From the NCBI GenBank assembly GCA_964522435.1, contig CAZFUL010000002.1:108631-172630 (forward strand): 64,000 nucleotides of DNA. Direction: 5' to 3'. Source of the DNA: an uncultured Gammaproteobacteria bacterium. Its GTDB lineage: Bacteria > Patescibacteriota > Patescibacteriia > Magasanikbacterales > UBA922. A program made the translations under genes and the position numbers. Shown piece by piece: positions 1-44,807 of this stretch; position 1 is the first letter of the stretch, and each line of letters begins with the position of its first letter. The notes below the pieces were generated by a model, which saw only the letters and a program-made list of their open reading frames with translations, made no database searches and was not told where the DNA came from.

Positions 1-763
1 TTTTTGTGGCGATGATATTCGTTCTCCAAAAATAACAAAAGCGTATTATGATGCGCAACAAAAAGATACATTTATTAATTATTATAAAGAAGTGTATCCA
101 TTCTTTTTTACCGATGCCTACGAAAGACAAAAACAAAAAATAGCAGCAGATGCTGATATGTATGCTGATGTAATCTTTAATAGTCCCTTCGATCAGCGAG
201 GTTATATTACCAAAAAGACCTATCCTATTTTTTACATGATTCCTCTGGAAGAATATTCTTTTGATGCTCATAAACATCGTACCATGCAAAAACCTATTAT
301 TGTGCATGCGCCTAGTTCTTCTTTAACCAAAGGTACTCCTCTCGTGCGTGCAGCGATTAAACGGTTACAACAAGAAGGCTATGAATTTGAGTATATAGAG
401 ATAATGAATAAATCAAATGATGAAGTAAAGGCCTTACTGTTGAATAGTCACATTGTATTAAATCAATTTTATGCTGATGCTCCAGGATTTTTTGGTATTG
501 AGGCATTAGCAACCCATAATGCAGTTCTTATGTCCGCTGATCCGGAATATAATACCGCTGATCTTCCTGCTGACGCGAAAGGAGCCTGGATGGTGACTAA
601 TTATTGGCAAGTATATGATCATCTGAAGTATTTGTTAGAACACCCACAGGAGATATCTGTATATGCGCAAAAAGGACGATTGTTGGTGGAAACATATTTT
701 GATATTTCTGCAGCAAAAAAAAGATATTATACGGCATTAACAAAAGAGGGGATAACGGTATAA
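1..763 (+). CDS. Partial CDS (5' end outside window): probable GT-B glycosyltransferase C-terminal domain
   Basis: The frame is open from base 2 into the annotated GTG-start ORF with no in-frame stop. Motifs 'SSLTKGTPLVRAAIKRL...GYEFEYIEI' and 'GIEALATHNAVLMS' resemble the C-terminal Rossmann half of GT1/GT4 enzymes. It sits next to a flippase gene. Confidence 0.35.
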   Translation, partial: FCGDDIRSPKITKAYYDAQQKDTFINYYKEVYPFFFTDAYERQKQKIAADADMYADVIFNSPFDQRGYITKKTYPIFYMIPLEEYSFDAHKHRTMQKPIIVHAPSSSLTKGTPLVRAAIKRLQQEGYEFEYIEIMNKSNDEVKALLLNSHIVLNQFYADAPGFFGIEALATHNAVLMSADPEYNTADLPADAKGAWMVTNYWQVYDHLKYLLEHPQEISVYAQKGRLLVETYFDISAAKKRYYTALTKEGITV

Positions 764-764
764 G

Positions 765-2195
765 ATGATTAGACGAGTATTAAAAGATGGCATTATTTAT
801 ACTATACCAGTACTAGTTACCCAAGGTATTTCATTATTATTGCTTCCTATTTACACCCGTATACTATCACCAGAACAGTATGGTGCCTTAGATATCCTTT
901 TACTATCATTTATTATTGTTCATATTGTTATTGGATTGGAAATTTCACAAGGTATTGCACGCTATTATAGCGATACACAACATGAGAAAGAGAAAATTGT
1001 ATATGCCTCATCGGCTTGGTGGTTTATTGTATTTTTTTATTTGGTCTTTTTTCTTTTGGCTTTTTTCTTTGCCGCACCACTAGCAACGATGCTTTTGGGG
1101 GAATCTGGGTATACCGTTATTTTACAAATGGCAGTAGTTTGCAGTAGTATTGCTGGTCTTTTTTCTTTTGTATTGAATCAATATCGTTGGTCTTTTAAAA
1201 GTAAAGAGTATGCGGCATTAAGTATATTGGCATCGATACTTTCTTCTGTCTGCGCTCTGTTTTTTGCGGTATATAAAGATTTAGGACTTTTGGGTATATT
1301 ACTTGGGATGTCTGCAGGAACAGGGGTCGCGCTTATGATTGGTTTAATTGGATTACGTAAGACATTCCTCTTTACTTTTGATAAAGCTAAACTTGCGGAC
1401 ATGCTTGCTTTTTCTTTTCCCCTCGTGCCTGCAGGATTAGCATTTTTTGTTAGTTCTTATATTGATCGTTTGATGATTAATCATTATTTATCCTTAGAAG
1501 ACGTTGCCATATATAGTGTTGGAAATAAAATAGCCACCATTGGATTACTTGCGATGGTCGGATTTCAAGGGGCGCTTACTCCTCTTATTTATACACAGTA
1601 TCGATCACCAGAGACCGCAAAAAAAATTGGATTTTTGTTTAAATGGTTTATGATTGCTTCATTACTCTGTTATGTGTTGGTGAATATGTTTGCAAAAGAA
1701 ATTATACAAATACTTGCAACACCAAATTATTATGCAGCAAGCACGCTTCTTATCGTATTAATTCCTGCAATACTGTTTAACAAAATGTATATTTTTGCCC
1801 CAGGATTAAGTATTGCTAAAAAAACAAGTCGTATATTGCTTATTCAGATACTAGGGGCCTGTATAAATTTATTTGGTAATACCCTCTTTATTCCCTATTT
1901 TGGGTATATGGGAGCTGCCATAAGTACGCTCGTGAGTGCAGGACTTGTATTTTTCTTTTATATACACCAAAGTAAAAAATATTACACAATCGCGTATCAA
2001 GGCAGACCTTTGATTATGCTTTCTTTGGTAGCAGTATGTTGTTCTCTCTATATACAGTTTATATCGACACAAACAGGGGGAGTTCTTTGGTTAGTTCGTA
2101 TAGGAATTATAACTCTCTTTCTTTACTGTATCGTGTTATTTCGCATAACGTCTATTAAAGAAGTAACGCAGCGTATCATTCAATATAAAAAATGA
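765..2195 (+). CDS. Wzx-like oligosaccharide flippase (MOP/polysaccharide biosynthesis family)
   Basis: 476 aa and hydrophobic throughout, with about 12-14 predicted TM helices. The size and context inside a sugar-modification cluster fit a flippase. Confidence 0.5.
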   Translation: MIRRVLKDGIIYTIPVLVTQGISLLLLPIYTRILSPEQYGALDILLLSFIIVHIVIGLEISQGIARYYSDTQHEKEKIVYASSAWWFIVFFYLVFFLLAFFFAAPLATMLLGESGYTVILQMAVVCSSIAGLFSFVLNQYRWSFKSKEYAALSILASILSSVCALFFAVYKDLGLLGILLGMSAGTGVALMIGLIGLRKTFLFTFDKAKLADMLAFSFPLVPAGLAFFVSSYIDRLMINHYLSLEDVAIYSVGNKIATIGLLAMVGFQGALTPLIYTQYRSPETAKKIGFLFKWFMIASLLCYVLVNMFAKEIIQILATPNYYAASTLLIVLIPAILFNKMYIFAPGLSIAKKTSRILLIQILGACINLFGNTLFIPYFGYMGAAISTLVSAGLVFFFYIHQSKKYYTIAYQGRPLIMLSLVAVCCSLYIQFISTQTGGVLWLVRIGIITLFLYCIVLFRITSIKEVTQRIIQYKK

Positions 2196-2202
2196 TGCTT
2201 TT

Positions 2203-3315
2203 TTATATTGGCATAAGAAACTTTTGTATCATTTGAGCTGGGTACTCATGTCCACCATCGTGAATACCGCAAGTCACATGTGAGAGTTCTTTAAAAAAAG
2301 TACATGTTTTTTGTTCTATTGATTCTTCTTTGTACGTACCTACTTCTTCTTTTCCATAGGTAAATAGAAATTTTGTTTTCATTTTTGATATTCTTTTATG
2401 AATATAGTCTGCGTTTAATTTTTGGTATAAACCGGGAATAATGATTTGATCATGTCCTGACCATAAAATATCGTAATCCATAATCGAGAAACCACTTGCA
2501 ACGATGGTAGCATCTGGTTCTGATTGGAGAGAATTAATAAGCGCAGCTGCCCCACCTTGAGAAAGTCCGACAATCATTGTGTATGAGTATCGGTTTTGTA
2601 AAAATTTAGTAATAGCCAAACTGTTTGCAATGTAGTGTGCGGAATATGATCCACCAGTATTTATTTGCCAATTAATGATAAAATCTTTATTCAATTTATA
2701 TTTCTCATTATGAATCGCAAGGGGACTACCATTGGGTTTGATTAATATAAATTTTTGGTATTCTTCACCAAGGATATCAATAATATTTGACTGATAATTT
2801 GTATTCTTTCCTTCATGAATTTCAAATGATTGGTTAATACCCGAACCTGGTATAATCAAAGCTGCGGGCTTCTCTGTAGTAACGGCAGCTGGGGCATACG
2901 CATAGGCGGTGTATGTTTTGTTTCCCAGACTATAAGTGAGTGTTAAGATATTGTTGTTATCATCATTAATGAATGTATAATCAGTTATGGTGATATGTTT
3001 ATATGCATCAAAAAAATGTTCGACTGGAAGAAACATTAATTCATTCATTTTTTTAATATCATCTAAAGAGTCAATTGGTTCAAATATTTTTTCTTCTTCT
3101 ATTAAAGGATCCGTAAATGCAAGATCGATTAAATTTTTATCTTCAATCATGTGTGCCATGACGGATTGTTTTATTTTTTTTAACAAGGTGTAGGGAGGAA
3201 TATGGTATTGCATGACGGCTATTCCATAGATAAAAGACAGCAGTAGCGCTGCTATAATAGAAAAAATTGAAAATTGATGATGATATATCGTATTACTGAG
3301 ATGCTTTATATTCAT
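2203..3315 (-). CDS. alpha/beta-hydrolase fold protein (putative esterase), membrane anchored
   Basis: N-terminal TM helix and a GxSxG nucleophile elbow 'VGLSQGGAAAL'. Confidence 0.45.
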   Translation of the reverse strand: MNIKHLSNTIYHHQFSIFSIIAALLLSFIYGIAVMQYHIPPYTLLKKIKQSVMAHMIEDKNLIDLAFTDPLIEEEKIFEPIDSLDDIKKMNELMFLPVEHFFDAYKHITITDYTFINDDNNNILTLTYSLGNKTYTAYAYAPAAVTTEKPAALIIPGSGINQSFEIHEGKNTNYQSNIIDILGEEYQKFILIKPNGSPLAIHNEKYKLNKDFIINWQINTGGSYSAHYIANSLAITKFLQNRYSYTMIVGLSQGGAAALINSLQSEPDATIVASGFSIMDYDILWSGHDQIIIPGLYQKLNADYIHKRISKMKTKFLFTYGKEEVGTYKEESIEQKTCTFFKELSHVTCGIHDGGHEYPAQMIQKFLMPI

Positions 3316-3323
3316 AGATATAT

Positions 3324-4082
3324 TTATATCATATCAAATTCATCTTCTTTTTTATCTTTCCTCCATAATCGTATAAAAATCTTTTGGCCATCAACATAAA
3401 AAAAAGCAGGATAATCGTCTGGGTCGCAGGCCCGTATTTCATGGTATAGTGTTTCTAAATTTTTTTTCGGATCAATTTCTGAATCTTTTGGAGTACGTAT
3501 CTGAGTATAGCTACTTGCATCTTTTTCATTTTGTTCTATCCCTATAAGTTTTTTTTCTTTTATTTTTTGGATAACCTCATATAACACTTCTGGTTCTAAC
3601 TCTTGTGTTTTTCTCGAAAGACTTTTTGTTGTATCAAAAGGGCTAAGAGGAAATGATTTTTGCGCATAGATTACTCCTTTATCCATTTCTTCTGTTAATT
3701 GGTGAACGGTTACCCCACTATTTTGTTCGTTATTTATAATGATATAGGGTCCACTACGATATCCTCTATACTTTGGCAATAAGGTGGGATGCACATTAAT
3801 TGCATAAGGTGCTGCATCAATAACCGTTTTTTCTATAATAAATGGAAAACCACAAGAAACAAGAATATCGTAATCAAGGTTTTTTATTTGAGAAGCCAAT
3901 GATGCTTTCGTCACCGGAATAACAGGTATAGAAAATTCTAATGCCGTGGTGATAACGTCTAAAAATCGTTGATTTTTTTCTGTATAGGTTGGCGTAATAA
4001 CGGCGACCACCTGTTCTCCTTTTTCAAGTAAGTATTTTAGGGCTCGATGGCGTCTTCCACCACTGAGAAATAGTATTTTCAT
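3324..4082 (-). CDS. sugar N-formyltransferase (formyl_transferase family, Fmt/ArnA-N-like)
   Basis: 'HPTLLPKYRGYRSGPY' matches the formyltransferase HPSLLPxxRG signature. The 252-aa size and position beside a DegT aminotransferase are typical of N-formyl sugar pathways. Confidence 0.7.
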   Translation of the reverse strand: MKILFLSGGRRHRALKYLLEKGEQVVAVITPTYTEKNQRFLDVITTALEFSIPVIPVTKASLASQIKNLDYDILVSCGFPFIIEKTVIDAAPYAINVHPTLLPKYRGYRSGPYIIINNEQNSGVTVHQLTEEMDKGVIYAQKSFPLSPFDTTKSLSRKTQELEPEVLYEVIQKIKEKKLIGIEQNEKDASSYTQIRTPKDSEIDPKKNLETLYHEIRACDPDDYPAFFYVDGQKIFIRLWRKDKKEDEFDMI

Positions 4083-9147: not shown

Positions 9148-10125
9148 TTATTTGAGGGACGTACGCCATGCAATAAGTTTGCGGAGACCCTCTTCTAAAC
9201 TATACTGTGGAATAAACTGTAAGTCTTTTTGAATTTTTTCTGTTGACCCAATACGATTTTTAACAAATTGACGCGCATCATCTGCTGTATAGGGGATATA
9301 CTCAACTGATACAGTGGATTGTGTTAATCGAAGCATCGTATTACACAAATCACGAATACTTGTTTGTATGCCCGTGCCCACATTATAAAAACCATGCGTA
9401 ACAGGAGCCGTAAGGGCGGCAATATTTGCGCGTGCAACATCATCAACATACACAAAATCATAGGCTTGTGAGCCATCGCCGTTTACTTGTGGAGAACGCT
9501 GTGTATCAATACTATTTAACACATTTGGTATTACTCCCGTATAGGCTGCTTGTTGATCTTGATGTGGGCCATATACATTCATATAGCGTAATCCGATAAC
9601 CGGTAATTTGTATCGATCATTAAACGCCGTACACATCGATTCTCCTGCAATTTTTGTTGCTCCGTAAAAATTTTTATTATGAAAGGGATGTTCTTCTGTC
9701 ATGGGAGTAAAAGCCGCATCGCCATATACAGAAGCAGACGAAGAATAAATGAGTTTTTTTACTCCGTGCTTTACACAGGCTTCTAACACATTAAATGTTC
9801 CTGCGATATTTACTTCAAATGCCGTGCGAGGAAAATCTTTGCAATGGAGTAACCACATGGCTGCTAAATGAAATACATAATCAACACCTGCAAATGCGTT
9901 ATCCAATACATCAACGTCGCGAATGTCTCCGCCATAGGGAAACAGGCTGCACCGTGGATCTTGCAGACTTTCAGTAAGATATTCTTTTTTTCCACGAGTA
10001 AAATTATCGTAAATAACGACTTCTTTTACTGGGTGTTTAAGGAGTTCTTTTACCACGGCACTCCCAATAAATCCCGCACCACCAATCACGAGTACTTTTT
10101 TATTATCAAGAGGAAAATCCATCAT
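9148..10125 (-). CDS. NAD-dependent epimerase/dehydratase (extended SDR)
   Basis: 'VLVIGGAGFIGSAVV' Rossmann motif and 'YGATK' YxxxK catalytic motif. Confidence 0.8.
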   Translation of the reverse strand: MMDFPLDNKKVLVIGGAGFIGSAVVKELLKHPVKEVVIYDNFTRGKKEYLTESLQDPRCSLFPYGGDIRDVDVLDNAFAGVDYVFHLAAMWLLHCKDFPRTAFEVNIAGTFNVLEACVKHGVKKLIYSSSASVYGDAAFTPMTEEHPFHNKNFYGATKIAGESMCTAFNDRYKLPVIGLRYMNVYGPHQDQQAAYTGVIPNVLNSIDTQRSPQVNGDGSQAYDFVYVDDVARANIAALTAPVTHGFYNVGTGIQTSIRDLCNTMLRLTQSTVSVEYIPYTADDARQFVKNRIGSTEKIQKDLQFIPQYSLEEGLRKLIAWRTSLK

Positions 10126-10137
10126 ACTACGTTACGA

Positions 10138-11184
10138 TTATGTATCTAATAAAATAGGCAAACTCAACACGGTGTTACACAATTGTTCAGAAATAGGAAA
10201 GTCACCTGTTGTATACCCTAAATACGCAAAACAGGGCTGGGTATGTAAGGGTTCAGGATAATAGATCATCGTTGGTATGCCTTGTTCCTCAAATTTGTGT
10301 ATCAACGCATCGCGGTTGGGTACTTGTATGGTGTATTGATTATAACTATGCCCACTTGCCGCAGCAACAAAAGGAATCGTGATATCACTTTCTGAAGAAA
10401 ATTGTTCATCATATTTTTTTGCTTGTGCCTGTCGTGCTGCAATTTCCTTTGGTAGATAGGGAAGTTTTACTCGTAAGATTGCTGCTTGTATAGTATCTAA
10501 TCGAGAATTATGTCCTAACATTTCGTGGTGATATTTTTTTGTCTGTCCTTGTAATTTTAATAAGCGAATTTTTTCAGCAAGCGCTGCATCATTGGTGCTA
10601 ATAGCACCCCCATCACCATAGCAACCTAAATTTTTGGTTGGAAAAAAAGAGAAGGTATTAATATGACCAAATGTACCGCTTTGTTTGCCGTTCCAGGTTG
10701 CCCCAGTACTTTGCGCGCAGTCTTCAATAACAAAAAGATCATGTTCTTTTGCCAGTGTCATGACCTCGTCCATATTCGCCATTTGTCCAAATAAATGTAC
10801 GGGGATAATTGCTTTGGTTTTTGCTGTTATTTTTTTTCTTGCTTCTGCTACATCAAGAGTATATGTTTGTTGATCAACATCACAAAACACGGGTGTTGCG
10901 CCAAGGTGCGCAATAACATTTGCTGTTGCCACATAGGTAAAGGCAGGAACAATGACCTCATCGCCCTGAGTAATACCCAGTGCTTTTAATGCAAGAAAAA
11001 GCGCATCAGTCCCATTTGCACAACTGACAACATGCGGTATTCCCAGATAGTTCGCGAATTCTTGTTCAAATAATTCTACTTCTTCGCCCCCAATAAAAAC
11101 ACCTGCAGATAATACTCGTTGTACTGCGTCGAGAATTGCTTGTTTATAAGGTTTATTGTCTAGTGAGAGGTTTATGAAGTCCAT
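10138..11184 (-). CDS. DegT-family sugar aminotransferase (WbpE-like)
   Basis: 'TFSFFPTKNLGCYGDGGAISTN'. Confidence 0.8.
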   Translation of the reverse strand: MDFINLSLDNKPYKQAILDAVQRVLSAGVFIGGEEVELFEQEFANYLGIPHVVSCANGTDALFLALKALGITQGDEVIVPAFTYVATANVIAHLGATPVFCDVDQQTYTLDVAEARKKITAKTKAIIPVHLFGQMANMDEVMTLAKEHDLFVIEDCAQSTGATWNGKQSGTFGHINTFSFFPTKNLGCYGDGGAISTNDAALAEKIRLLKLQGQTKKYHHEMLGHNSRLDTIQAAILRVKLPYLPKEIAARQAQAKKYDEQFSSESDITIPFVAAASGHSYNQYTIQVPNRDALIHKFEEQGIPTMIYYPEPLHTQPCFAYLGYTTGDFPISEQLCNTVLSLPILLDT

Positions 11185-12842: not shown

Positions 12843-15437
12843 TTAAGGCTGCAGGTGCAGCCCGCATCCCTCATGATCGTATGCGGACGGGGGGGATGCC
12901 GGGTTGAGGATATCTCGACCCCGGATCAGGTTGCCGCCGGAGTCGTAGTCGAACTCCTGCAGCAGGGTCACCTGACCGTTCCCATTCCGGATACGCAGGG
13001 TGGTGGGCAAGCGGTCGTTCACGTTGACATACGTGAACGTCCACTCAAATTCGGTCCGGCCCAGGTTGTCCTGGACCAGGATGCGGCGGAGGAGATTGGG
13101 GTTGCCCCCGTACTCCCACACCCAGGGGTTCGTGGGAACCCCTTCGCACTCGGTGTTGGCGTACTGGTTCCCACGGGTGGGTCGACCAGCGCCATCAAAG
13201 TTCGTGACCAGCACACAGGTGCCGGCCACAAAGTCGATACGGCGGCTCCAGTAGGTGCCGCCCTGCCCATCACTGACGGGCAGGAATTCTGCGACCACCT
13301 GGCCATTGACCAGGCTCCGACAGGCCATTGCCGGGGCGCGCACCGTCGATGCGGCACAGCCTTGGCACAGGCCCTCGCCGTTTTCGCCGCAGGCACCGCT
13401 GCCCGGCACCCCCAGGGCGCATTGGCCTTGGGGGGGCTGGCAGGGAGCGCCGACGTTGAAGTCTTCGTCGACGGTGCCGTCGCAGTCTTCGTCTTCGGCG
13501 TTGCAGAGCTCGGCCGGAGCCGGGCCGCATTCGCCGCAGGCGTTGACCAGGTTTTCGTCGACGGTGCCGTCGCAGTTGTCGTCGATGTTGTTGCACTGAG
13601 CCCCTTCGGGGCGGGGAGTCACCCCACCCACACAGGCGGCCCAGGCGCCGTTGACGCAGGTCTGCGTGCCTTCGCGGCACGCGCCAACATTGCTCCCGCA
13701 GTTGCGGGTGGTGTCGTTGGCGCAGGCACAGCCCTCATTGGCTGTGCCATCGCAGTCTTCGTCGAGACCTGCTTGGTCGCAGACCTCTTGGGGCACGGGG
13801 CCACAGGCGCCACAGGCGTTGAACACACCTTCGTCGATGTTGCCATTGCAGTTGTTGTCGATCCCGTCGCAGATTTCCGGCTGGGCAGGACCCGGCTGGC
13901 AATCTGCGACGAGTTGACCGTTTTGGCACACCATCTGACCAGCGCTCTCACACGCGCCGGTGCCGCACATCGTGGGACTTGCGGCGATCCCTTCGTCACT
14001 GCGGCCATCGCAGTCGTCATCTTCGTTGTTGCAGATCTCGGGGATGGGTTGCCCCGCACCCGAGCAGGCACCAAAGGTGCCATCCTCGAGACAGACCTGC
14101 ACCCCGGGGGTGCAGCGGCCGACATTCTCGCCGCAGGGGCGGCTTTCATCGGGGGTGCAGCCGCAGACCCCGTCGTCCACGCTGCCGTCACAGTCGTTGT
14201 CAAGGTCGTCGCAGACTTCCTCACCGGGGGCCCCGGCTTGGCAGGCTGCTTCGTAGGCGCCGTTGATACAGCGCCGGTTGACCTCACGTCGGCACTCGCC
14301 GACGCCACAGCTCTCCGGAATGGGAGCTGCGTTTTCGTCGCTGCGGCCATCGCAGTCGTCATCGATGTTGTTGCAGGTCGCATCAGCCGCGGCCGGTTGC
14401 CCAGCCTGGGCATTGCAGACCACGCCGTTGCCGCGGGGATCGCAGACGTTGATCCCGTTGGAGCGACAGGCGCCGACGCCGGCGTTGCAGGCCTGCCCCA
14501 GAGTGGGGAAGCTCTCGTCGATCGTGCCGTCGCAGTCATCATCCAGGCCATTGCAGGTTTCAGCCTGAACGCCCGGACTGACATTGGCGGTGCATTGCTC
14601 GCAGCCGGTCAAAACACCGGCGGCGCATATGCCAGGCAGGCTGCTGTCGCAGCCCGCCTCACCTTGGCCGGGGAACGACTCATCGCTGCGGCCGTCGCAG
14701 TCGTCGTCGAGGCTGTTGCAGGTCTCCTCCCCAGGCATGCCCGGGGTGCAGGAGCGGTTGGTGAAGCCACCTTCGCAGGTGACCGTCCCTTCCGCCCTGC
14801 AGATGCCTTCGCCGCAGAGGATTTCCTCCGGGACGAATTCATCAGGATCGCATTCGCAGTTCTCGTCGACGTCGCCGTCGCAGTCGTTGTCGCGCTCGTC
14901 GCAACCGTCGTCTTCCGACTCCGGCTCGCCAGGCGTACACTCGGGTACGCGCTGCCCATTCAGGCAGACTTGCCGTCCGTTGCGCTGGCAAACGCCTACC
15001 CCGCAGTTGCCTGCAGGAAATGGCTCAAGGTCTTCGTCGACGTTGCCATCGCAGTCGTTGTCTGCGTCATCGCAGCGCTCCGGAGCAGGTCGCTCGACCT
15101 GCTCACACACGAAGGCTCCATCCGCCAGGCAGCGGATGAGGCCAACGTGGCAGACCCCCAAGTTGGGGGTGGTGCAGGGCGCGTCGTGGACACAGGCGGG
15201 CGGCCCTTGGTCAGGGCTGCCATCGGGGCGCGGGGTCTCTGCGTCGGTTTGCGGCTCGCCCAGGTCGGGCGCCGCCCCGTCTTCTTCTACGCCGCTGTCG
15301 GAAGGAGGGGTGATCTGGGCGTCAGCAACGACGCCCGTGTCAGACCCGCCCTGAGGCGGGTCAGGAAAGTCTCCGGGGCAGCCCGTGAGGCTGCCGAGAA
15401 GCAGGGCCCAAAACAGGGCCGTCATGAGGTTCTTCAT
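12843..15437 (-). CDS. GC-rich secreted lipoprotein with about 11 DDDCDG-type cysteine-rich repeats, ending in a YD-repeat start (apparently truncated)
   Basis: ATG start with a signal peptide plus lipobox 'LLGSLTGC'. Repeats run 'CNxxDDDCDGxxDE'. The C-terminus reads '...TLLQEFDYDSGGNLIRG...' and stops exactly at the GC-content boundary. The opposite-strand 918-aa ORF is a GC shadow. Confidence 0.7.
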   Translation of the reverse strand: MKNLMTALFWALLLGSLTGCPGDFPDPPQGGSDTGVVADAQITPPSDSGVEEDGAAPDLGEPQTDAETPRPDGSPDQGPPACVHDAPCTTPNLGVCHVGLIRCLADGAFVCEQVERPAPERCDDADNDCDGNVDEDLEPFPAGNCGVGVCQRNGRQVCLNGQRVPECTPGEPESEDDGCDERDNDCDGDVDENCECDPDEFVPEEILCGEGICRAEGTVTCEGGFTNRSCTPGMPGEETCNSLDDDCDGRSDESFPGQGEAGCDSSLPGICAAGVLTGCEQCTANVSPGVQAETCNGLDDDCDGTIDESFPTLGQACNAGVGACRSNGINVCDPRGNGVVCNAQAGQPAAADATCNNIDDDCDGRSDENAAPIPESCGVGECRREVNRRCINGAYEAACQAGAPGEEVCDDLDNDCDGSVDDGVCGCTPDESRPCGENVGRCTPGVQVCLEDGTFGACSGAGQPIPEICNNEDDDCDGRSDEGIAASPTMCGTGACESAGQMVCQNGQLVADCQPGPAQPEICDGIDNNCNGNIDEGVFNACGACGPVPQEVCDQAGLDEDCDGTANEGCACANDTTRNCGSNVGACREGTQTCVNGAWAACVGGVTPRPEGAQCNNIDDNCDGTVDENLVNACGECGPAPAELCNAEDEDCDGTVDEDFNVGAPCQPPQGQCALGVPGSGACGENGEGLCQGCAASTVRAPAMACRSLVNGQVVAEFLPVSDGQGGTYWSRRIDFVAGTCVLVTNFDGAGRPTRGNQYANTECEGVPTNPWVWEYGGNPNLLRRILVQDNLGRTEFEWTFTYVNVNDRLPTTLRIRNGNGQVTLLQEFDYDSGGNLIRGRDILNPASPPSAYDHEGCGLHLQP

Positions 15438-15855
15438 GGTATGTCTCTCTTTCTCCTCGTATTCGACGAGGGTGTGTGTATGGGTTTGCGTTTACCAGGC
15501 GCTCACCCGGATTCTGTTGCAACAGGCAACAGAGAAAATATAGGGAATACCCTATGCTTTATCTGTTGCCTGTTATGTGTATAGGTATATCTCTTATTGT
15601 AGAGAGCAAGCGCTTCTTTGAGTATACTGTTTTTGTTATCGCAAAAACAGCTTTTTTGCCTAAAGAAAGCTCCTATTTATGCCATAAATAAGCGAATTTG
15701 TCAAGTGGTATAGGTACTCATGCTACAGGGAAAGTGCTTCTTTGTTCCTTCATATCGCCTGTCTGTATCCCTGTGTTTCAAGGGGGAATATATACGTTGC
15801 TCATTACGCAAAAATGCGTTACACTACCCATACTTATTTTTGATGTATATTGTGT

Positions 15856-20585: not shown

Positions 20586-20659
20586 GTAACAAGGGGGAGA
20601 TTCGAACTCCCGACCTGAGGGTTATGAATCCTCCGCTCTTACCAACTGAGCTACCCTGT
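20586..20659 (-). tRNA. tRNA-Met (anticodon CAT; an elongator or lysidine-Ile2 type cannot be excluded)
   Basis: Hand-folded. Acceptor GACAGGG/CCUUGUU includes two G-U pairs. D-arm is GCUC-AGUUGGUAA-GAGC, the anticodon loop is UUCAUAA, and the T-arm is GGGAG-UUCGAAU-CUCCC. No CCA is encoded. Confidence 0.7.
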
Positions 20660-20860
20660 CGTCGCCCCTAAAGGGAATTTTTGTTTCCTAGCCAGTATAC
20701 GGTATAAAAAGAAATATTTCAAGAGTCTACTATTGTTCTCCTGAACATCATCCGTATCTACGAATAAGGTATTTGGAGTGGGAAGTGCATAAATGCCCTT
20801 CCCATACCGGCAGGTGAGCCACCGCGTCAATCGCGTTGGTTGCACACTGTTTTGTGGTTG

Positions 20861-21775
20861 TTACTTCTTCACGGCGAGGAAGTAGGTGTTGGAGTCCCAC
20901 TTCTCGGGCTCTTTCTCCGAGAATGAGAAGCTCCGCCATTCGTCAAGGCTCAGGGAAGCGAAGTAGATTGTTTCGCGTCCACTGTATGTTTTAATGGCGT
21001 AGTGCCAGCCAATGGTCACGATCGGACCTTTGGCAAACATCCCTTTGCTTGCCTCGGCAAAGGAGAGAATTTCTCCCAGTAGGGCCGGTTGCAGGCCTCG
21101 CTTGGCCAATTCGTAGGACACTCCTTCGCTCGTCATCGGTTGATCGAATTTGATGATTTGGAAGGTTACATTACGGTAACCGTCGATCATCGGGAATTGG
21201 ATCTCGTCGACGGTGCCCCGTACACCCCAGGGGAACACCGTAACGTTGTCGAGTTCGGCCAGCGCGAGCATTTCCCGCAAGGTCAATCCCAGGTCAAACT
21301 TTACGTCGAAGGTATCTCCGGGCTTGATCTCGCGATAGCCTGCAGGCATGAAGCGCCAGGGATCGAAGGAGATACGCGAACCCTGGGAACATCCCAGGGT
21401 GACCTGCCAGCGGTTGATGGGGTCAGCCTTTCGTGAAAGCAGCATGTAGCTGCATTTGCACTTGCAGCGCATGGGAGTGTTGTCGTCCTCGACGTCAGTC
21501 AGGGTGCGGAGCTCCCAATCCCCGCCGCCGTTGGCGTTGAAGTGGCGCGCGATGGCCTGAAGGCGCAGGTTTTCATCTTGATCCGGCTCCGTCGCGGCGT
21601 TGGCCGCGTTCACTCGCTGCTTCACTTCTTCGGGCAGCGCGTCGAACATCTGCGCACGCCAGGAGCGTTGCGTGTCGGCCTGGCTTTCGTGCCAGGGCTT
21701 GATCGTGGGGCGGGCTGCTGTGCAGGCCGCCAAAAACCAGCTGATGATCAGCAGAGAAAGGTTTTTGAATTTCAT
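20861..21775 (-). CDS. GC-rich lipoprotein of unknown function
   Basis: ATG start, signal peptide and lipobox 'FLAACT'. 304 aa with much higher GC than its neighbours. It lies between two tRNA genes. Confidence 0.6.
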   Translation of the reverse strand: MKFKNLSLLIISWFLAACTAARPTIKPWHESQADTQRSWRAQMFDALPEEVKQRVNAANAATEPDQDENLRLQAIARHFNANGGGDWELRTLTDVEDDNTPMRCKCKCSYMLLSRKADPINRWQVTLGCSQGSRISFDPWRFMPAGYREIKPGDTFDVKFDLGLTLREMLALAELDNVTVFPWGVRGTVDEIQFPMIDGYRNVTFQIIKFDQPMTSEGVSYELAKRGLQPALLGEILSFAEASKGMFAKGPIVTIGWHYAIKTYSGRETIYFASLSLDEWRSFSFSEKEPEKWDSNTYFLAVKK

Positions 21776-21956
21776 CGAGATATCCTTTCCTCAGGTGTTG
21801 TTTCGCCCATCATATTTCACACTATGTGGCTTGGGCGCGTAGCATGTTGTTTACCAAACATTGATACACAATATGCTCTGCGTCAATTGGTTTACGAGGA
21901 AGAATAAGGCATAGAGTATATATACAAAAAAAGAGGTTTTGTCAACCTCTTTATTG

Positions 21957-22028
21957 TAGCCCCAAGGGGAATTGAACCCCTGTTACCTGGATGAGAACCG
22001 GGCGTCCTAGCCACTAGACGATGAGGCC
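21957..22028 (-). tRNA. tRNA-Glu (anticodon CTC)
   Basis: Hand-folded. Acceptor is GGCCUCA/UGGGGCU, D-arm GUCU-AGUGGCUA-GGAC, anticodon loop UUCUCAU, T-arm AGGGG-UUCAAUU-CCCCU. It resembles the E. coli tRNA-Glu architecture. Confidence 0.65.
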
Positions 22029-22403: not shown

Positions 22404-22589
22404 AGTACGGATATGGGGATAAATATATATAACGCAGTTATTATAACGAAAGAGTTTTTTTATGTCAATGGAGCGCAATTATTCCCTCTATGTGATCTTG
22501 ACAAAATAGAAAAAGGTTTGTAGGCTGAAGTGCTTCTTTCCCATGGTGGGAGAGAAGGTGTGGTACTCAAACATGACTGGAGAAATGTC

Positions 22590-23573
22590 ATGAAGAAGAT
22601 TCTTTTGTTGTTGCTCCTCGCTGGGTTGGGCGTCCTCGTATGGAAAAACCATACCCCCAAGAACACGTTGGGAGGGGACGCGCCGCCGGTAGTGACGGTC
22701 GCACAGAAGATGACTGAGCTGCTCACTGCCTACGAGGCGCTCCATCCCCAGCCGGATCATTTCTGGTTGACGGGTGGAGATCAGCTGATGTTGATCGGTG
22801 CTCCCGCGTACAACAAGCTCCTCCAGACTTGGAAGGCGGACGCCATCGCGGGTTTGCGTCGCAACATGGAGGCGCACCCGCTCATGCACGACCTCATGAG
22901 CGAGTTTCCTGACTTCCGGATCACTGAGGTGGTTCGGCAGGGAAATAGCTACGGGTCCCGGGCGGTGTTCCCTGGAAAGATTGAGGGGAATATCGAACAG
23001 TTCATGCAAGAGCAAGGGAAGTTCCTCGAAGTCGCCCTCATCCCAGAGCAAAACTGGGATCACTCGGCGTTTCCCTCTTGCTTGTACTACAACAAGGGAT
23101 GGGGAGCCGTGATGGTGGTTGGCGTGGACATCCCTGCAACGTTTGGCACGGCGCTGTTGGCTCATGAACTTGGGCATGCGTTGCGTCATCGCCAAGGTGC
23201 CGGGTCTGCAACCGCTCACCCGAGCACGGATCTCTTCATCGGCGAAGAGGTGGAGATGCATGTTCTTGAACATGAGGTGTTGAACTTCGCGGTTCAGGGC
23301 AAGTTCAATCAGCTCTTGGATCGCATCATCGCCCGCGCGGCCAACAAGCAAGACATGAACCAGGTGATCAAGTCTGTCACTGCAGAAGACCTCAAGGCCT
23401 ACGACCAGCTCTTCGGGCTTGAGTCTGCTGGCAAAGAGATTGCCTCACTTGCCCTTGGGCAGTTCCTGTTGTCCTTGGGCTTCCGCATGATTGACGGCTA
23501 CATCACAGAGCCGCAAGCCGCACATGCAGAGAAGATTCGCTTCTATCGTTGGATCAGCAATCCGGCGAAGTAG
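22590..23573 (+). CDS. GC-rich exported protein with HExxH zinc-metallopeptidase-like motif
   Basis: Start at 'MKKILLLLLLAGLGVLVW' (signal peptide or anchor). It carries 'ALLAHELGHALRH'. The high-GC antisense ORF 22488..23351 is a shadow. Confidence 0.45.
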   Translation: MKKILLLLLLAGLGVLVWKNHTPKNTLGGDAPPVVTVAQKMTELLTAYEALHPQPDHFWLTGGDQLMLIGAPAYNKLLQTWKADAIAGLRRNMEAHPLMHDLMSEFPDFRITEVVRQGNSYGSRAVFPGKIEGNIEQFMQEQGKFLEVALIPEQNWDHSAFPSCLYYNKGWGAVMVVGVDIPATFGTALLAHELGHALRHRQGAGSATAHPSTDLFIGEEVEMHVLEHEVLNFAVQGKFNQLLDRIIARAANKQDMNQVIKSVTAEDLKAYDQLFGLESAGKEIASLALGQFLLSLGFRMIDGYITEPQAAHAEKIRFYRWISNPAK

Positions 23574-43807: not shown

Positions 43808-43837
43808 TTTGCTGAGTTGTCTAAATTTTTTTACCCC

Positions 43838-43947
43838 GTCACCCCGAGCGAAGCCCATAGGGCGTAGTCGAGGGGGTAAGGATCTTTATATCATCGGTGC
43901 TAATATCCTAAACTCCTCGACTCACTTCGTTCGCTCGGAGTGAAAGG
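43838..43947. repeat. 110-bp long-armed imperfect inverted repeat (about 45-nt arms)
   Basis: The left arm is 'ccccgtcaccccgagcgaagcccatagggcgtagtcgagggggtaaggat'. Its reverse complement closely matches the right arm 'atcctaaactcctcgactcacttcgttcgctcggagtgaaagg'. Confidence 0.6.
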
Positions 43948-43978
43948 ATACTAAATGTAGAAAATTATTTTAAAAAAT

Positions 43979-44012
43979 AACCCTGCAATATTGTATTACA
44001 GGGTTATTTCTT
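43979..44012. terminator. rho-independent terminator (hairpin aaccctg...cagggtt plus T-rich tail)
   Basis: Perfect 7-bp stem followed by 'atttctttcctcctttcttttttct'. Confidence 0.55.
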
Positions 44013-44054
44013 TCCTCCTTTCTTTTTTCTCCTTGGTTTGGGGTGATTGTCGCG

Positions 44055-44222
44055 TCAGCTCTTGGGCTGGGCGGGAATACGGCGAAGCACCTCGAGCGTT
44101 TCTCGATGGAGCTTGCACAGGAGAGCAATCTGCTGTGCGTTCAACGTTCCGGTCCCGCCATAGACCCGTTCGTACAGATCAGGGTCAAGGCAGCAGGGGC
44201 ATTTCTTATACAGAAGTGGCAT
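44055..44222 (-). CDS. small GC-rich Cys/His protein, paralog 3 (CPCC...LCKLH)
   Basis: 'MPLLYKKCPCCLDPDLYERVYGGTGTLNAQQIALLCKLH'. It shares the motif C-x(1-2)-C ... Q-Q-I-A-x-L-C-x2-H with the gene upstream. Confidence 0.35.
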   Translation of the reverse strand: MPLLYKKCPCCLDPDLYERVYGGTGTLNAQQIALLCKLHRETLEVLRRIPAQPKS

Positions 44223-44236
44223 CGTTCTTCTCCTTG

Positions 44237-44419
44237 TTAGCGGCGCTGGGCGCTGCTGGGTTTGGGATTTTCTTGCTCTGCTTGCCACGCTGCCTTATGC
44301 TGTGAGCACAGGTCAGCGATCTGTTGCTTGTCCAGATTCAAAAAGGGCGAGCGTCCGGTGTTGTTCCGTGGATAGCTGCACAAATGGCAGTGCCGGTTGA
44401 ACTTAAAGAACGCAGGCAT
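44237..44419 (-). CDS. small GC-rich Cys/His protein, paralog 2 (CHLC...LCSQH)
   Basis: 'MPAFFKFNRHCHLCSYPRNNTGRSPFLNLDKQQIADLCSQH'. Confidence 0.35.
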   Translation of the reverse strand: MPAFFKFNRHCHLCSYPRNNTGRSPFLNLDKQQIADLCSQHKAAWQAEQENPKPSSAQRR

Positions 44420-44435
44420 GGTTTTTCTCCCTTCC

Positions 44436-44669
44436 TCAGTGATTGTCGCCATAGTCGTTGAACTGCTTCGTCAACGCATCGAAGATCACCTGGGCTTCCT
44501 TGTAGTTCATTTCTCGTCGGCGGCTCACCATACGAACATGCGGTTCGCACAGGTGGTGGGGTTCTTTCTCCACGACATGCGCTCCGAGCTCGAAGAGCTT
44601 AAGCAACATCGGTTTGCTGGTGCAGAGCACACAGGCCGAATCGTGGGGAATTGGCTCGATTTCTACCAT
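44436..44669 (-). CDS. small GC-rich Cys/His protein, paralog 1 (CVLC...HHLCEPH)
   Basis: 'MVEIEPIPHDSACVLCTSKPMLLKLFELGAHVVEKEPHHLCEPH'. First of three same-strand tandem genes. Confidence 0.3.
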   Translation of the reverse strand: MVEIEPIPHDSACVLCTSKPMLLKLFELGAHVVEKEPHHLCEPHVRMVSRRREMNYKEAQVIFDALTKQFNDYGDNH

Positions 44670-44807
44670 CCTCGTTCTCCTTTGACCTGAGGGTGTTTCA
44701 TAGGAAGCCATATTTTTTTCTTTTTGTCAATGCCCAAGGCAAGGAGCTTGTATTTTTATGCTCATCCCGTATACTAGGGGTCAAGACAACCTTGTGTAAC
44801 GCAGTAT

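What the first reader, a model, noticed from the sequence alone, without database searches (positions are those of the whole stretch)
20586..22028. Island B: GC-rich orphan lipoprotein bracketed by tRNA-Met and tRNA-Glu with no integrase
tRNA genes are classic integration hot spots. A 304-aa GC-rich lipoprotein (lipobox LAAC, odd 'RCKCKCS' segment) sits exactly between a tRNA-Met(CAT) and a tRNA-Glu(CTC) on the same strand. A GC-rich hairpin (gggaag...cttccc) lies downstream, and no recombinase is present. This may be a remnant of an integrative element or a cargo gene without its mobility machinery.
Basis: partly seen in the sequence, partly recalled or inferred. Interest (0 to 1): 0.55.

Follow-up and report, generated by a model that had tools for sequence, protein, structure and literature searches.

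The report
Foreign lipoprotein gene splitting a tRNA pair
A 1.3-kb piece of foreign, GC-rich DNA carrying one surface-lipoprotein gene has been inserted at a tRNA-Glu gene of an uncultured Magasanikbacteria (CPR) genome, leaving a decayed second copy of that tRNA as a scar; this is an ordinary kind of event, but a clean example in a poorly known group of bacteria.

Summary
tRNA-Met(CAT) lies at 20586-20660, tRNA-Glu(CTC) at 21956-22028 and a 304-aa lipobox ORF at 20861-21775, all on the minus strand. ORF GC3 is 0.73, against 0.23-0.38 in neighbouring genes.

The genome belongs to Candidatus Magasanikbacteria (CPR). In ten related loci tRNA-Glu and tRNA-Met lie 4-317 nt apart next to the same PBP2 gene, so the 1.3-kb interruption is derived.

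A 41-nt decayed copy of tRNA-Glu (20661-20701) abuts tRNA-Met. The island is therefore bracketed by direct tRNA-Glu repeats, as after single-crossover integration into the tRNA gene. No integrase, transposase or reverse transcriptase is encoded in the 64 kb.

The protein is not a true orphan. It has three full-length lipoprotein homologues. One of them, also GC-rich, again lies downstream of a tRNA-Glu 3' end.

Its C-terminal ~150 aa belongs to a domain family with a weak C-type-lectin-like fold. That family includes a verified DGR (diversity-generating retroelement) variable protein, but no template repeat exists here.

Verdict: this is a decayed tRNA-targeted islet carrying a probable surface adhesin. 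It is one of three GC-rich single-gene inserts nearby. It is a new member of a known kind and of moderate interest.

The parts
20586..20660 (-). tRNA-Met(CAT). It is the ancestral downstream partner of tRNA-Glu and is now cut off from it.
   Evidence: ARAGORN. Rfam tRNA model, 64.8 bits. It aligns with the tRNA-Met next to PBP2 in relatives.
20661..20701 (-). Decayed copy of tRNA-Glu (pseudo-tRNA, distal repeat). It matches tRNA positions 8-24, 45-48 and 54-73 and lacks the anticodon arm. Its 3' end directly abuts the 5' end of tRNA-Met, where relatives have the intact tRNA-Glu.
   Evidence: the repeat finder families D6 and D8. Gapped alignment score 27.4, with 34 of 41 bases matching. None of 5000 dinucleotide shuffles reach that score. 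No other 80-nt window of the 64 kb, on either strand, reaches it apart from the real tRNA-Glu.
20694..20722 (-). Sigma-70-like promoter (TTGAAA-17-TATACT), partly built from the tRNA-Glu remnant. It lies 33 nt upstream of tRNA-Met and probably drives the now separated tRNA-Met.
   Evidence: Consensus scan, 10 of 12 matches. Function is inferred.
20779..20804 (-). GC-rich hairpin 57 nt downstream of the stop codon, with no T-tract. It is a probable transcript-end or stabilising structure brought in with the cargo.
   Evidence: the repeat finder I3. RNA fold -22.6 kcal/mol, z = -4.1.
20861..21775 (-). 304-aa lipoprotein gene, the cargo. It has a signal peptide with lipobox LAAC (Cys18) and an N-terminal domain of unknown fold. 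That domain carries a C-x-C-x-Y motif invariant in all four members, extended to C-x-C-x-C-x-Y in three. The C-terminal ~150 aa is a C-type-lectin-like domain.
   Evidence: ORF. GC3 0.731. Homologues P0002-P0004 conserve the lipobox and the Cys motif. AF2 model pLDDT 84.7. All top 50 Foldseek hits of the domain model are C-type lectin-like domains, but weakly (E 0.12-0.8, TM 0.29-0.47).
21917..21945 (-). Promoter-like TTGACA-17-TATATA for the lipoprotein gene, overlapping the terminator loop. A 5' UTR (21776-21916) follows, with an AGGAAAGGA Shine-Dalgarno sequence.
   Evidence: Read from the sequence. A similar TTGACAAAA..TTTTT.TGTATA promoter precedes the homologues in L049 and L051, and a UTR segment resembles L050 (2-5 of 1000 shuffles reach each score).
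21930..21952 (-). Intrinsic terminator immediately after tRNA-Glu (9-bp stem plus T7).
   Evidence: Terminator scan. RNA fold -14.2 kcal/mol, z = -5.9. It is absent in L001, where tRNA-Met follows tRNA-Glu after 4 nt.
21956..22028 (-). Intact tRNA-Glu(CTC), the proximal repeat. Its 5' flank is the native HU gene.
   Evidence: ARAGORN. Rfam, 54.2 bits. It aligns with the tRNA-Glu of relatives.

Best explanation
Island B is the decayed remnant of a DNA element that integrated by a single crossover within the tRNA-Glu(CTC) gene of a Candidatus Magasanikbacteria (CPR/Patescibacteria) chromosome.

What is shown:
- The ancestral arrangement was PBP2 - tRNA-Met - tRNA-Glu - HU, with the two tRNAs a few bases apart and co-transcribed Glu to Met.
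- The present arrangement, read on the minus strand, is HU - intact tRNA-Glu - terminator - promoter - GC-rich lipoprotein gene - hairpin - decayed tRNA-Glu copy - tRNA-Met.
- The native 5' flank therefore adjoins one tRNA-Glu copy and the native 3' flank adjoins the other. This is the topology of Campbell-type integration.

What is inferred:
- The incoming DNA was circular and carried a tRNA-Glu-like attachment segment.
- The recombinase, or the rest of the element, has since been lost.
- The redundant distal tRNA copy decayed and was partly recycled into a promoter for tRNA-Met.
- The GC3 of 0.73 points to a donor of roughly 55-60% GC, possibly a GC-richer CPR lineage.

The cargo is a surface-anchored lipoprotein. 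Its C-terminal domain belongs to a family with a C-type-lectin-like fold that diversity-generating retroelements hypermutate in at least one CPR-like genome. Here it has no template repeat or reverse transcriptase nearby, and its C-terminus is conserved among homologues. It most likely acts as a fixed-specificity ligand- or host-binding adhesin on the cell surface of an episymbiotic bacterium.
For: Insertion is derived:
- In L001 the tRNAs are 4 nt apart, and in L056 107 nt. In L003, L004, L006, L061, L067, L080, L081 and L086 the gap is 8-317 nt. All lie next to PBP2.

Repeat scar:
- A tRNA-Glu remnant lies at 20661-20701. None of 5000 shuffles reach its score, and it is the unique best match in 64 kb.

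Hot spot:
- The spacers of L067 and L006 hold 3'-half copies of tRNA-Glu. The L006 copy resembles another lineage's tRNA-Glu.
- The spacers of L081 and L086 hold partial tRNA-Met copies.

Foreign composition:
- GC3 is 0.73 against 0.23-0.38 in backbone genes.

Recurrence:
- Homologue P0003 in L051 (GC3 0.90, flanks GC 0.40-0.47) lies 460 nt downstream of a 28-nt tRNA-Glu 3' end plus terminator, in the same orientation.

Rewired signals:
- A terminator follows tRNA-Glu, and promoter-like sites precede the cargo and tRNA-Met.

Cargo:
- The lipobox and the Cys motif are conserved in P0002-P0004.
- The C-terminal domain family was defined.
- Family member P0024 is a genuine DGR target. Its VR and TR show 20 of 20 mismatches at TR adenines, with RVT_1 and bAvd adjacent.
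- AF2 gives pLDDT 84.7 for the full protein and 86.5 for the domain.
- Fold hits are uniformly C-type lectin-like, though weak.
Against: - No integrase is present anywhere in the 64 kb, so integrase-mediated integration is inferred, not seen.
- The remnant includes a D-arm block as well as the 3' end. That is more than a classical attR fragment, and it fits homologous recombination or a prior tandem duplication equally well.
- No donor lineage was identified. All four family members sit in AT-richer flanks, and none was found in an evidently GC-rich genome.
- No relative closer than 63% PBP2 identity was available, so the event cannot be dated.
- The fold assignment rests on Foldseek E-values of 0.04-0.8.
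- The adhesin function is an inference from fold, lipobox and family context only.
Confidence: 0.65

Rival explanations
1. The gene entered without any integrative element. Foreign DNA, for example taken up by natural transformation, was captured by illegitimate or homology-facilitated recombination between two pre-existing tandem copies of tRNA-Glu, or a local duplication arose during repair.
For: Relatives show partial tRNA-Glu duplications in the same spacer without any cargo (L067 and L006). The remnant spans the D-arm to the 3' end, which is more than a typical att core. No integrase is present in 64 kb. Two other GC-rich single-gene inserts nearby have no tRNA or repeat signature. A PilT competence/pilus gene is adjacent.
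Against: A homologous cargo again lies downstream of a tRNA-Glu 3' end in the independent contig L051. That argues for site specificity rather than random capture. The flank topology is exactly that of single-crossover integration.
Confidence: 0.2
2. The gene is an old, vertically inherited resident of this locus that was lost in the sampled relatives. Its GC-richness reflects something other than recent transfer.
For: A 33-35% identical homologue lies in a similar position, downstream of a tRNA-Glu 3' end, in L051. The MopE-repeat protein of Island A has a GC-elevated homologue in relative L001. That shows GC-elevated secreted-protein genes can persist in this clade.
Against: GC3 is 0.73 here and 0.90 in L051, against host GC3 of about 0.3. 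That is incompatible with long residence under the host's mutational bias. All ten relatives with the tRNA pair lack the gene. The duplicated tRNA-Glu marks an insertion event. The domain family exists in host-like AT-rich form elsewhere (L055, GC 0.35), so high GC is not intrinsic to it.
Confidence: 0.08
3. The gene is an active remote target of a diversity-generating retroelement encoded elsewhere in the genome. The downstream hairpin would be the cruciform that assists retrohoming.
For: The C-terminal domain is homologous to that of a proven DGR target. A stable GC-rich hairpin lies downstream of the gene. Only 64 kb of a contig of at least 185 kb was examined.
Against: No RT, Avd or TR-like repeat of the gene's 3' end exists in the window. 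The VR-equivalent segment is conserved among P0001-P0003 (...SLSLDEWRSFSFSEKEPEKWDSNTYFLAV versus ...SLTLSEWRTFSFTEQEPSKWDENVYFLAI), unlike a hypervariable region. The hairpin lies 57 nt beyond the stop codon rather than abutting the coding end.
Confidence: 0.07
4. The island is a metagenome assembly chimera: a GC-rich fragment from another organism spliced into the contig.
For: There is a sharp compositional step. The genome is a MAG-type assembly. The protein is seen on a single contig only.
Against: The insert is a complete ORF with signal peptide, Shine-Dalgarno sequence, promoter and terminator, sitting exactly in an intergenic spacer. Its AT-rich flanks run continuously into both tRNAs. 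A decayed tRNA-Glu duplicate marks a biological event. Two other GC-rich inserts in the window are equally gene-exact. Homologues show the same pattern of a GC-rich ORF behind an AT-rich promoter on independent contigs.
Confidence: 0.03

Closest known systems
tRNA-gene-associated genomic islands / degenerate integrative elements (tDNA islets bounded by a tRNA gene and a direct repeat of part of it)
   Same: The insertion lies immediately 3' of a tRNA gene. A direct repeat of tRNA sequence marks the distal end. Base composition is atypical. The island is absent from relatives. The cargo encodes a surface protein.
   Different: It is only 1.3 kb with a single gene, and there is no integrase. The distal repeat is a near-full-length but internally deleted tRNA copy rather than a short 3' att core. 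It sits between two formerly co-transcribed tRNAs in a CPR genome.
DGR variable lipoproteins LdtA (Legionella) and TvpA (Treponema), listed as references 4 and 5 of PMC8144416
   Same: Both are lipoproteins with a signal peptide and lipobox, displaying a C-terminal C-type-lectin-fold ligand-binding domain. The domain family here contains a verified DGR target (L053).
   Different: There is no sequence similarity to solved structures. No RT, Avd or TR lies near the window gene. The C-terminal segment is conserved among homologues instead of hypervariable. The N-terminal C-x-C(-x-C)-x-Y domain has no counterpart that I could identify.
CPR-restricted DGRs (DGR clade 2 of Roux et al. 2021, PMC8144416)
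   Same: The related solo-domain protein P0024 sits in a DGR cassette (RVT_1 + bAvd + TR) on a contig with a CPR-typical DUF4012 gene. The same domain family recurs in Paceibacterota (P0028).
   Different: The window protein belongs to a rare two-domain lipoprotein subfamily (4 known members) that is not associated with a DGR in any of its four contexts.

Membership tests
tRNA-associated genomic island / integrative-element remnant | Inserted directly downstream of the 3' end of a tRNA gene | tested here: met
   The island starts 0 nt after the tRNA-Glu 3' end at 21956.
tRNA-associated genomic island / integrative-element remnant | Direct repeat of tRNA sequence at the distal boundary (attL/attR-like) | tested here: met
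   A 41-nt degenerate tRNA-Glu copy lies at 20661-20701. None of 5000 shuffles reach its score, and it is the unique best match in 64 kb. It is longer and more decayed than a classical att core.
tRNA-associated genomic island / integrative-element remnant | Absent from the same site in related genomes | tested here: met
   Ten related loci have tRNA-Glu and tRNA-Met 4-317 nt apart with no ORF of this family.
tRNA-associated genomic island / integrative-element remnant | Atypical base composition or codon usage | tested here: met
   GC is 0.569 and GC3 0.731, against backbone GC 0.38-0.42 and GC3 0.23-0.38.
tRNA-associated genomic island / integrative-element remnant | Encodes an integrase or recombinase | tested here: not met
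   No integrase, transposase or RT Pfam domain was found in the real ORFs of 150 aa or more in the 64 kb. I therefore file it as a remnant or islet, not as an intact element.
Bacterial lipoprotein (signal peptidase II substrate) | N-terminal signal peptide ending in a lipobox [LVI][ASTVI][GAS]C | tested here: met
   The protein starts MKFKNLSLLIISWFLAAC, with Cys18. The equivalent Cys is invariant in P0002-P0004.
Bacterial lipoprotein (signal peptidase II substrate) | Actual lipidation and surface localisation | not testable with these tools
   This needs experiment.
DGR variable (target) protein | Domain homologous to that of a verified DGR target | tested here: met
   Residues ~141-304 match the ~140-aa domain of P0005-P0029. 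P0024 of this family has a VR/TR pair with 20 of 20 mismatches at TR adenines, next to RVT_1 and bAvd.
DGR variable (target) protein | C-type lectin (CLec) fold carrying the variable region | tested here: inconclusive
   The AF2 domain model has pLDDT 86.5. All top 50 PDB Foldseek hits are C-type lectin-like domains, but with E 0.12-0.8 and TM 0.29-0.47. There is no PDB sequence hit.
DGR variable (target) protein | Cognate template repeat with adenine-specific mismatches | tested here: not met
   blastn (word size 7) of the gene against the 64 kb finds no second copy of its 3' end. The rest of the genome was not available.
DGR variable (target) protein | Reverse transcriptase and accessory (Avd) gene nearby | tested here: not met
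   tblastn with the L053 RT and Avd against the window gives only noise. No RVT Pfam hit was found in window ORFs.

The most novel reading that the evidence does not exclude
The tRNA-Glu gene of Magasanikbacteria-like CPR bacteria may be the dedicated landing site of a family of minimal, integrase-less islets. These would shuttle divergent, GC-rich versions of one C-type-lectin-like surface lipoprotein between lineages. The lipoprotein would be a de-coupled descendant of DGR variable proteins. CPR episymbionts would then swap host-binding adhesins by gene replacement at a fixed tRNA site, instead of, or in addition to, DGR hypermutation. Three observations are compatible with this. Two of the four known family members lie downstream of a tRNA-Glu or its 3' end, with very different GC3 (0.73 and 0.90). 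Relatives carry tRNA-Glu scars. Two further GC-rich exported-protein inserts lie nearby.
Probability: 0.15. Interest if true: 0.65.

Novelty: new member of a known kind. Interest (0 to 1): 0.42.

Why it matters
CPR/Patescibacteria have tiny genomes and live attached to other cells, so their surface proteins are thought to determine host range. How they acquire such proteins is poorly documented.

This locus gives a clean, datable example of gene gain. The ancestral state is known from ten relatives, and the scar is preserved. The gain is a foreign adhesin-like lipoprotein inserted at a tRNA gene.

The locus also links a rare lipoprotein family to the domain that CPR diversity-generating retroelements hypermutate. 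In addition, it shows how a split tRNA operon was rewired, with a new terminator and a promoter recycled from the dead tRNA copy.

The event type itself, a tRNA-targeted island remnant, is textbook. The value is therefore as a well-resolved case and a lead, not as a new principle.

Tried and rejected
Searches that found nothing:
- The word-indexed protein search with the single protein and with the family profile found only the protein itself and P0004.
- Pfam, NCBIfam and PDB sequence searches found nothing for the 304-aa protein, its homologues or the domain profile.
- IMG/VR and JGI metagenome scans with the family profile found no relatives. The domain profile was too variable to scan.
- The Rfam tRNA model does not detect the remnant, as expected with the anticodon arm deleted. 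I tested it by gapped alignment against shuffles and against all genomic windows instead.

Tests with negative or limited results:
- The second metagenome scan, with PBP2, was meant to find closer relatives that might hold an intact element. The best was 63% identity, no closer than before.
- I looked for sequence motifs shared among the flanks of the three GC-rich islands. I found only a 12-mer (GAAGTGCTTCTT) shared by the Island A and Island C flanks, E about 0.006-0.02, which is not convincing.
- The 350-aa neighbour of homologue P0004 in L049 is not related to the window's Island C protein, so the two islands were not once adjacent genes in a donor.
- A DGR in the window is rejected.
- The N-terminal domain gave only low-probability PAS/dCache-like fold hits (probability up to 0.11), which I do not accept.

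Full report
**1. Observation**

ARAGORN finds tRNA-Met(cat) at 20586-20660 and tRNA-Glu(ctc) at 21956-22028, both on the minus strand. Rfam's tRNA model confirms both, at 64.8 and 54.2 bits.

Between them lies one long ORF, 20861-21775 (-), of 304 aa. It begins MKFKNLSLLIISWFLAAC, which is a lipobox, and it contains RCKCKCS.

The ORF has GC 0.569 and GC3 0.731. Eight surrounding genes have GC 0.38-0.42 and GC3 0.23-0.38.

The hairpin reported downstream exists at 20779-20804. It folds at -22.6 kcal/mol with z = -4.1. All elements of the observation are confirmed.

**2. Whose genome, and what was there before**

The neighbours are PilT, a class B penicillin-binding protein (PBP2), HU and RNase Y.

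Searching GTDB representative genomes and JGI metagenomes with PBP2 returned Candidatus Magasanikbacteria and other Patescibacteria. The best matches were 62-63% identical.

The two nearest relatives are L001 and L056. Both have the gene order PilT - PBP2 - tRNA-Met - tRNA-Glu - HU - RNase Y - flippase. Their two tRNAs are 4 nt and 107 nt apart.

Eight further loci keep the Glu-to-Met pair next to PBP2, with spacers of 8-317 nt and no gene of this family. The 1295-bp interruption in the window is therefore a derived insertion into a conserved, formerly co-transcribed tRNA pair.

**3. The scar**

Immediately 5' of tRNA-Met, at 20661-20701 on the minus strand, lies a degenerate copy of tRNA-Glu. 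It aligns to tRNA positions 8-24 (D arm), 45-48 and 54-73 (T arm and acceptor 3' strand). In total 34 of 41 bases match, and the anticodon arm is deleted.

Its 3' end abuts tRNA-Met exactly where relatives have the intact tRNA-Glu. The gapped alignment score is 27.4. None of 5000 dinucleotide shuffles reach it. Among 6392 windows of 80 nt on both strands of the 64 kb, only the true tRNA-Glu and this segment reach it (first seen as repeats D6 and D8).

The island is thus bracketed by direct tRNA-Glu repeats. The intact copy keeps the native 5' flank (HU). The decayed copy keeps the native 3' flank (tRNA-Met). This is the product expected from single-crossover (Campbell-type) integration of a circular DNA into the tRNA gene.

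The tools cannot say which of these applied:
- a site-specific integrase whose attP carried a long tRNA copy;
- RecA-dependent recombination with an element-borne tRNA-Glu;
- capture between pre-existing duplicates.

**4. A recurrent hot spot**

The Glu-to-Met spacers of relatives contain similar debris:
- L067 holds a ~40-nt copy of the 3' half of tRNA-Glu, 17 nt after the gene.
- L006 holds two such fragments. The longer one resembles the tRNA-Glu of a different lineage (L005-type) rather than its own.
- L086 holds a nearly complete pseudo-tRNA-Met.
- L081 holds tandem repeats that include the tRNA-Met 5' end.

Recombination with tRNA-bearing foreign DNA has therefore happened repeatedly at this site.

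**5. Rewiring**

An intrinsic terminator now follows tRNA-Glu at 21930-21952. It has a 9-bp stem plus T7 and folds at -14.2 kcal/mol with z = -5.9.

A TTGACA-17-TATATA promoter-like site lies at 21917-21945, followed by a Shine-Dalgarno sequence ahead of the cargo gene.

A TTGAAA-17-TATACT site lies at 20694-20722. Its -10 element lies inside the dead tRNA copy, 33 nt upstream of tRNA-Met. These signals are consensus matches, and their function is inferred.

**6. No mobility genes**

All genes from PilT to the flippase are syntenic housekeeping genes.

Pfam scans of the real ORFs of 150 aa or more in the window found polysaccharide and cell-wall synthesis, translation and similar functions. 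They found no integrase, transposase or reverse transcriptase.

**7. The protein**

The word-indexed search saw only the protein itself. The exhaustive HMMER search of 1.84 billion representatives found three full-length homologues:
- P0002, 38% identity
- P0003, 35% identity
- P0004, 30% identity

All are lipoproteins of about 300 aa. All have the invariant lipobox Cys and the C-x-C-x-Y motif (C106, C108, Y110). Three of the four extend it to C-x-C-x-C-x-Y.

The C-terminal ~150 residues are one copy of a ~140-aa domain. That domain occurs alone or in two to three tandem copies in other proteins, with the motif RGLRPAT.ELLAFG...IVALGS...RFLAVRK. One example is annotated as Candidatus Paceibacterota.

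No Pfam, NCBIfam or PDB sequence match exists.

**8. Link to diversity-generating retroelements (DGRs)**

One domain-family member, P0024, lies on assembly GCA_000404945.1 (locus L053). It lies next to an RVT_1 reverse transcriptase and a bAvd gene.

Nucleotides 465-582 of its gene have a 118-nt, 83% identical repeat beside the Avd gene. All 20 mismatches are adenines in that repeat. This is the defining DGR template/variable-repeat signature, so the domain family includes a genuine DGR variable protein.

AlphaFold models are confident: pLDDT 84.7 and pTM 0.75 for the whole protein, and pLDDT 86.5 and pTM 0.83 for the domain.

Foldseek hits are weak (E 0.04-0.8, TM 0.29-0.47). Even so, all 50 top PDB hits of the domain model are C-type lectin-like domains, which is the fold known for DGR variable proteins.

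The window gene itself shows no sign of DGR targeting:
- It has no RT, Avd or template repeat within 64 kb.
- The segment equivalent to the variable region is conserved among P0001-P0003.

I therefore read it as a non-diversified, fixed-specificity relative. It is a surface lipoprotein with a lectin-like binding domain, plausibly an adhesin of an episymbiont. This function is inferred, not shown.

**9. Recurrence at tRNA-Glu**

Contig L051 carries P0003. That gene has GC 0.63 and GC3 0.90, in flanks of GC 0.40-0.47.

The contig begins with the last 28 nt of a tRNA-Glu. This fragment matches Magasanikbacteria-type tRNA-Glu end to end at 25-26 of 28 positions (26 of 28 to the window's own). It does not match other tRNA species end to end. 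A terminator follows it.

The lipoprotein gene lies 460 nt downstream in the same orientation. Two of the four known family members therefore sit downstream of a tRNA-Glu or its 3' end.

Both are far more GC-rich than their flanks, to different degrees, and the nearest relatives of the window genome lack the gene. I favour independent acquisitions at the same site over vertical inheritance.

All four members are GC-rich ORFs behind AT-rich promoters of the form TTGACAAAA..TTTTT.TGTATA. The window and L050 also share a 5' UTR segment. In shuffle controls, 2-5 of 1000 shuffles reached each observed score, so this similarity is modest.

**10. Context**

Island B is one of three GC-rich single-gene inserts within 11 kb, and all three encode exported proteins.

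Island A (12843-15437) encodes a MopE-motif Cys-rich lipoprotein with GC 0.66.

Island C (22590-23573) encodes a signal-anchored HExxH protein with GC 0.565. It lies between HU and RNase Y, which are adjacent in L001 and L056.

The donor of the GC-rich DNA remains unidentified. The domain family also exists at host-like GC 0.35 (L055), so high GC is not intrinsic to the family.

**11. Verdict**

The feature is a decayed tRNA-targeted islet, a new member of a known kind. Three points add interest:
- the CPR host;
- the relationship of the cargo to a DGR target domain;
- the apparent recurrence at tRNA-Glu.

Confidence in the main explanation is about 0.65, and interest is 0.42.

Noticed in passing
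window 22590-23573 (+): 'Island C' is a second GC-rich insert (GC 0.565, GC3 0.72). It encodes a 327-aa protein with an N-terminal signal/anchor (MKKILLLLLLAGLGVLVW) and an HELGH zinc-protease-like motif. It lies between HU and RNase Y, which are adjacent in relatives L001 and L056. It has no Pfam, NCBIfam or PDB sequence match. L067 has a different 201-aa ORF (GC 0.47 against 0.36) in the same spacer.
   Followed up: partly
window 12843-15437 (-): 'Island A' is an 864-aa lipoprotein (LTGC lipobox) with GC 0.66. It is made of repeated Cys-rich putative metal-binding motifs (Pfam PF11617 Cu-binding_MopE, E 2.4e-36). A 38% identical homologue lies in relative L001 at about 346-3621, also GC-elevated (0.45-0.52 against 0.37). 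This one may therefore be older than Islands B and C.
   Followed up: partly
L053 8001-10257 (GCA_000404945.1, ASOA01000008.1): This is a complete DGR cassette. It comprises the target gene P0024 (VR = gene nt 465-582), an RVT_1 reverse transcriptase, bAvd, and a TR at 10102-10219. All 20 of 20 TR/VR mismatches are at TR adenines. The target gene has GC 0.61 and the RT gene about 0.39.
   Followed up: yes
L067 9248-9413; L006 12132-12339; L081 7887-8203; L086 995-1261: The Glu-to-Met spacers of related Magasanikbacteria-like contigs contain partial tRNA copies. L067 and L006 hold 3' halves of tRNA-Glu. L086 holds a pseudo-tRNA-Met. L081 holds about three tandem repeats of ~108 nt that include the tRNA-Met 5' end. 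These are recombination scars at the same hot spot.
   Followed up: partly
L049 284-3985: Homologue P0004 heads a cluster of four consecutive lipoprotein genes, each with a lipobox Cys. GC falls from 0.57 to 0.47 along the cluster. The contig ends flanking it are AT-rich (0.37-0.39), so this looks like a multi-gene version of the same kind of island.
   Followed up: no
window 21776-21955 (-) versus L050 1-289, L051 368-395, L049 129-156: The upstream regions of the four family members share a similar strong promoter (TTGACAAAA..TTTTT.TGTATA). The window and L050 also share a 5' UTR segment (TGGTA.A.A..ATGCTA..CGCCCAAGC) that can form a hairpin. In shuffle controls, 2-5 of 1000 shuffles reached each observed score. 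This could be a co-transferred regulatory leader.
   Followed up: partly
window 43808-44807: A 1-kb stretch between an MreB/actin-like gene and a glycosyltransferase gene has no ORF longer than about 100 aa. Its GC is about 0.50, against 0.40 in the backbone, and it has no Rfam hit. It could be a decayed island or an unknown RNA.
   Followed up: no
window 15732-15743 and 22528-22539: A 12-mer (GAAGTGCTTCTT) is shared by the flanks of Island A and Island C. Related GTGCTTCT strings occur at the start of the Island C right flank. E is about 0.006-0.02, so this is probably chance.
   Followed up: no
L067 9490-9801: A 103-aa ORF that I recognise as GIY-YIG nuclease-like from its sequence (not Pfam-tested) lies immediately after tRNA-Met in relative L067. 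It is another sign of mobile DNA traffic at this tRNA pair.
   Followed up: no
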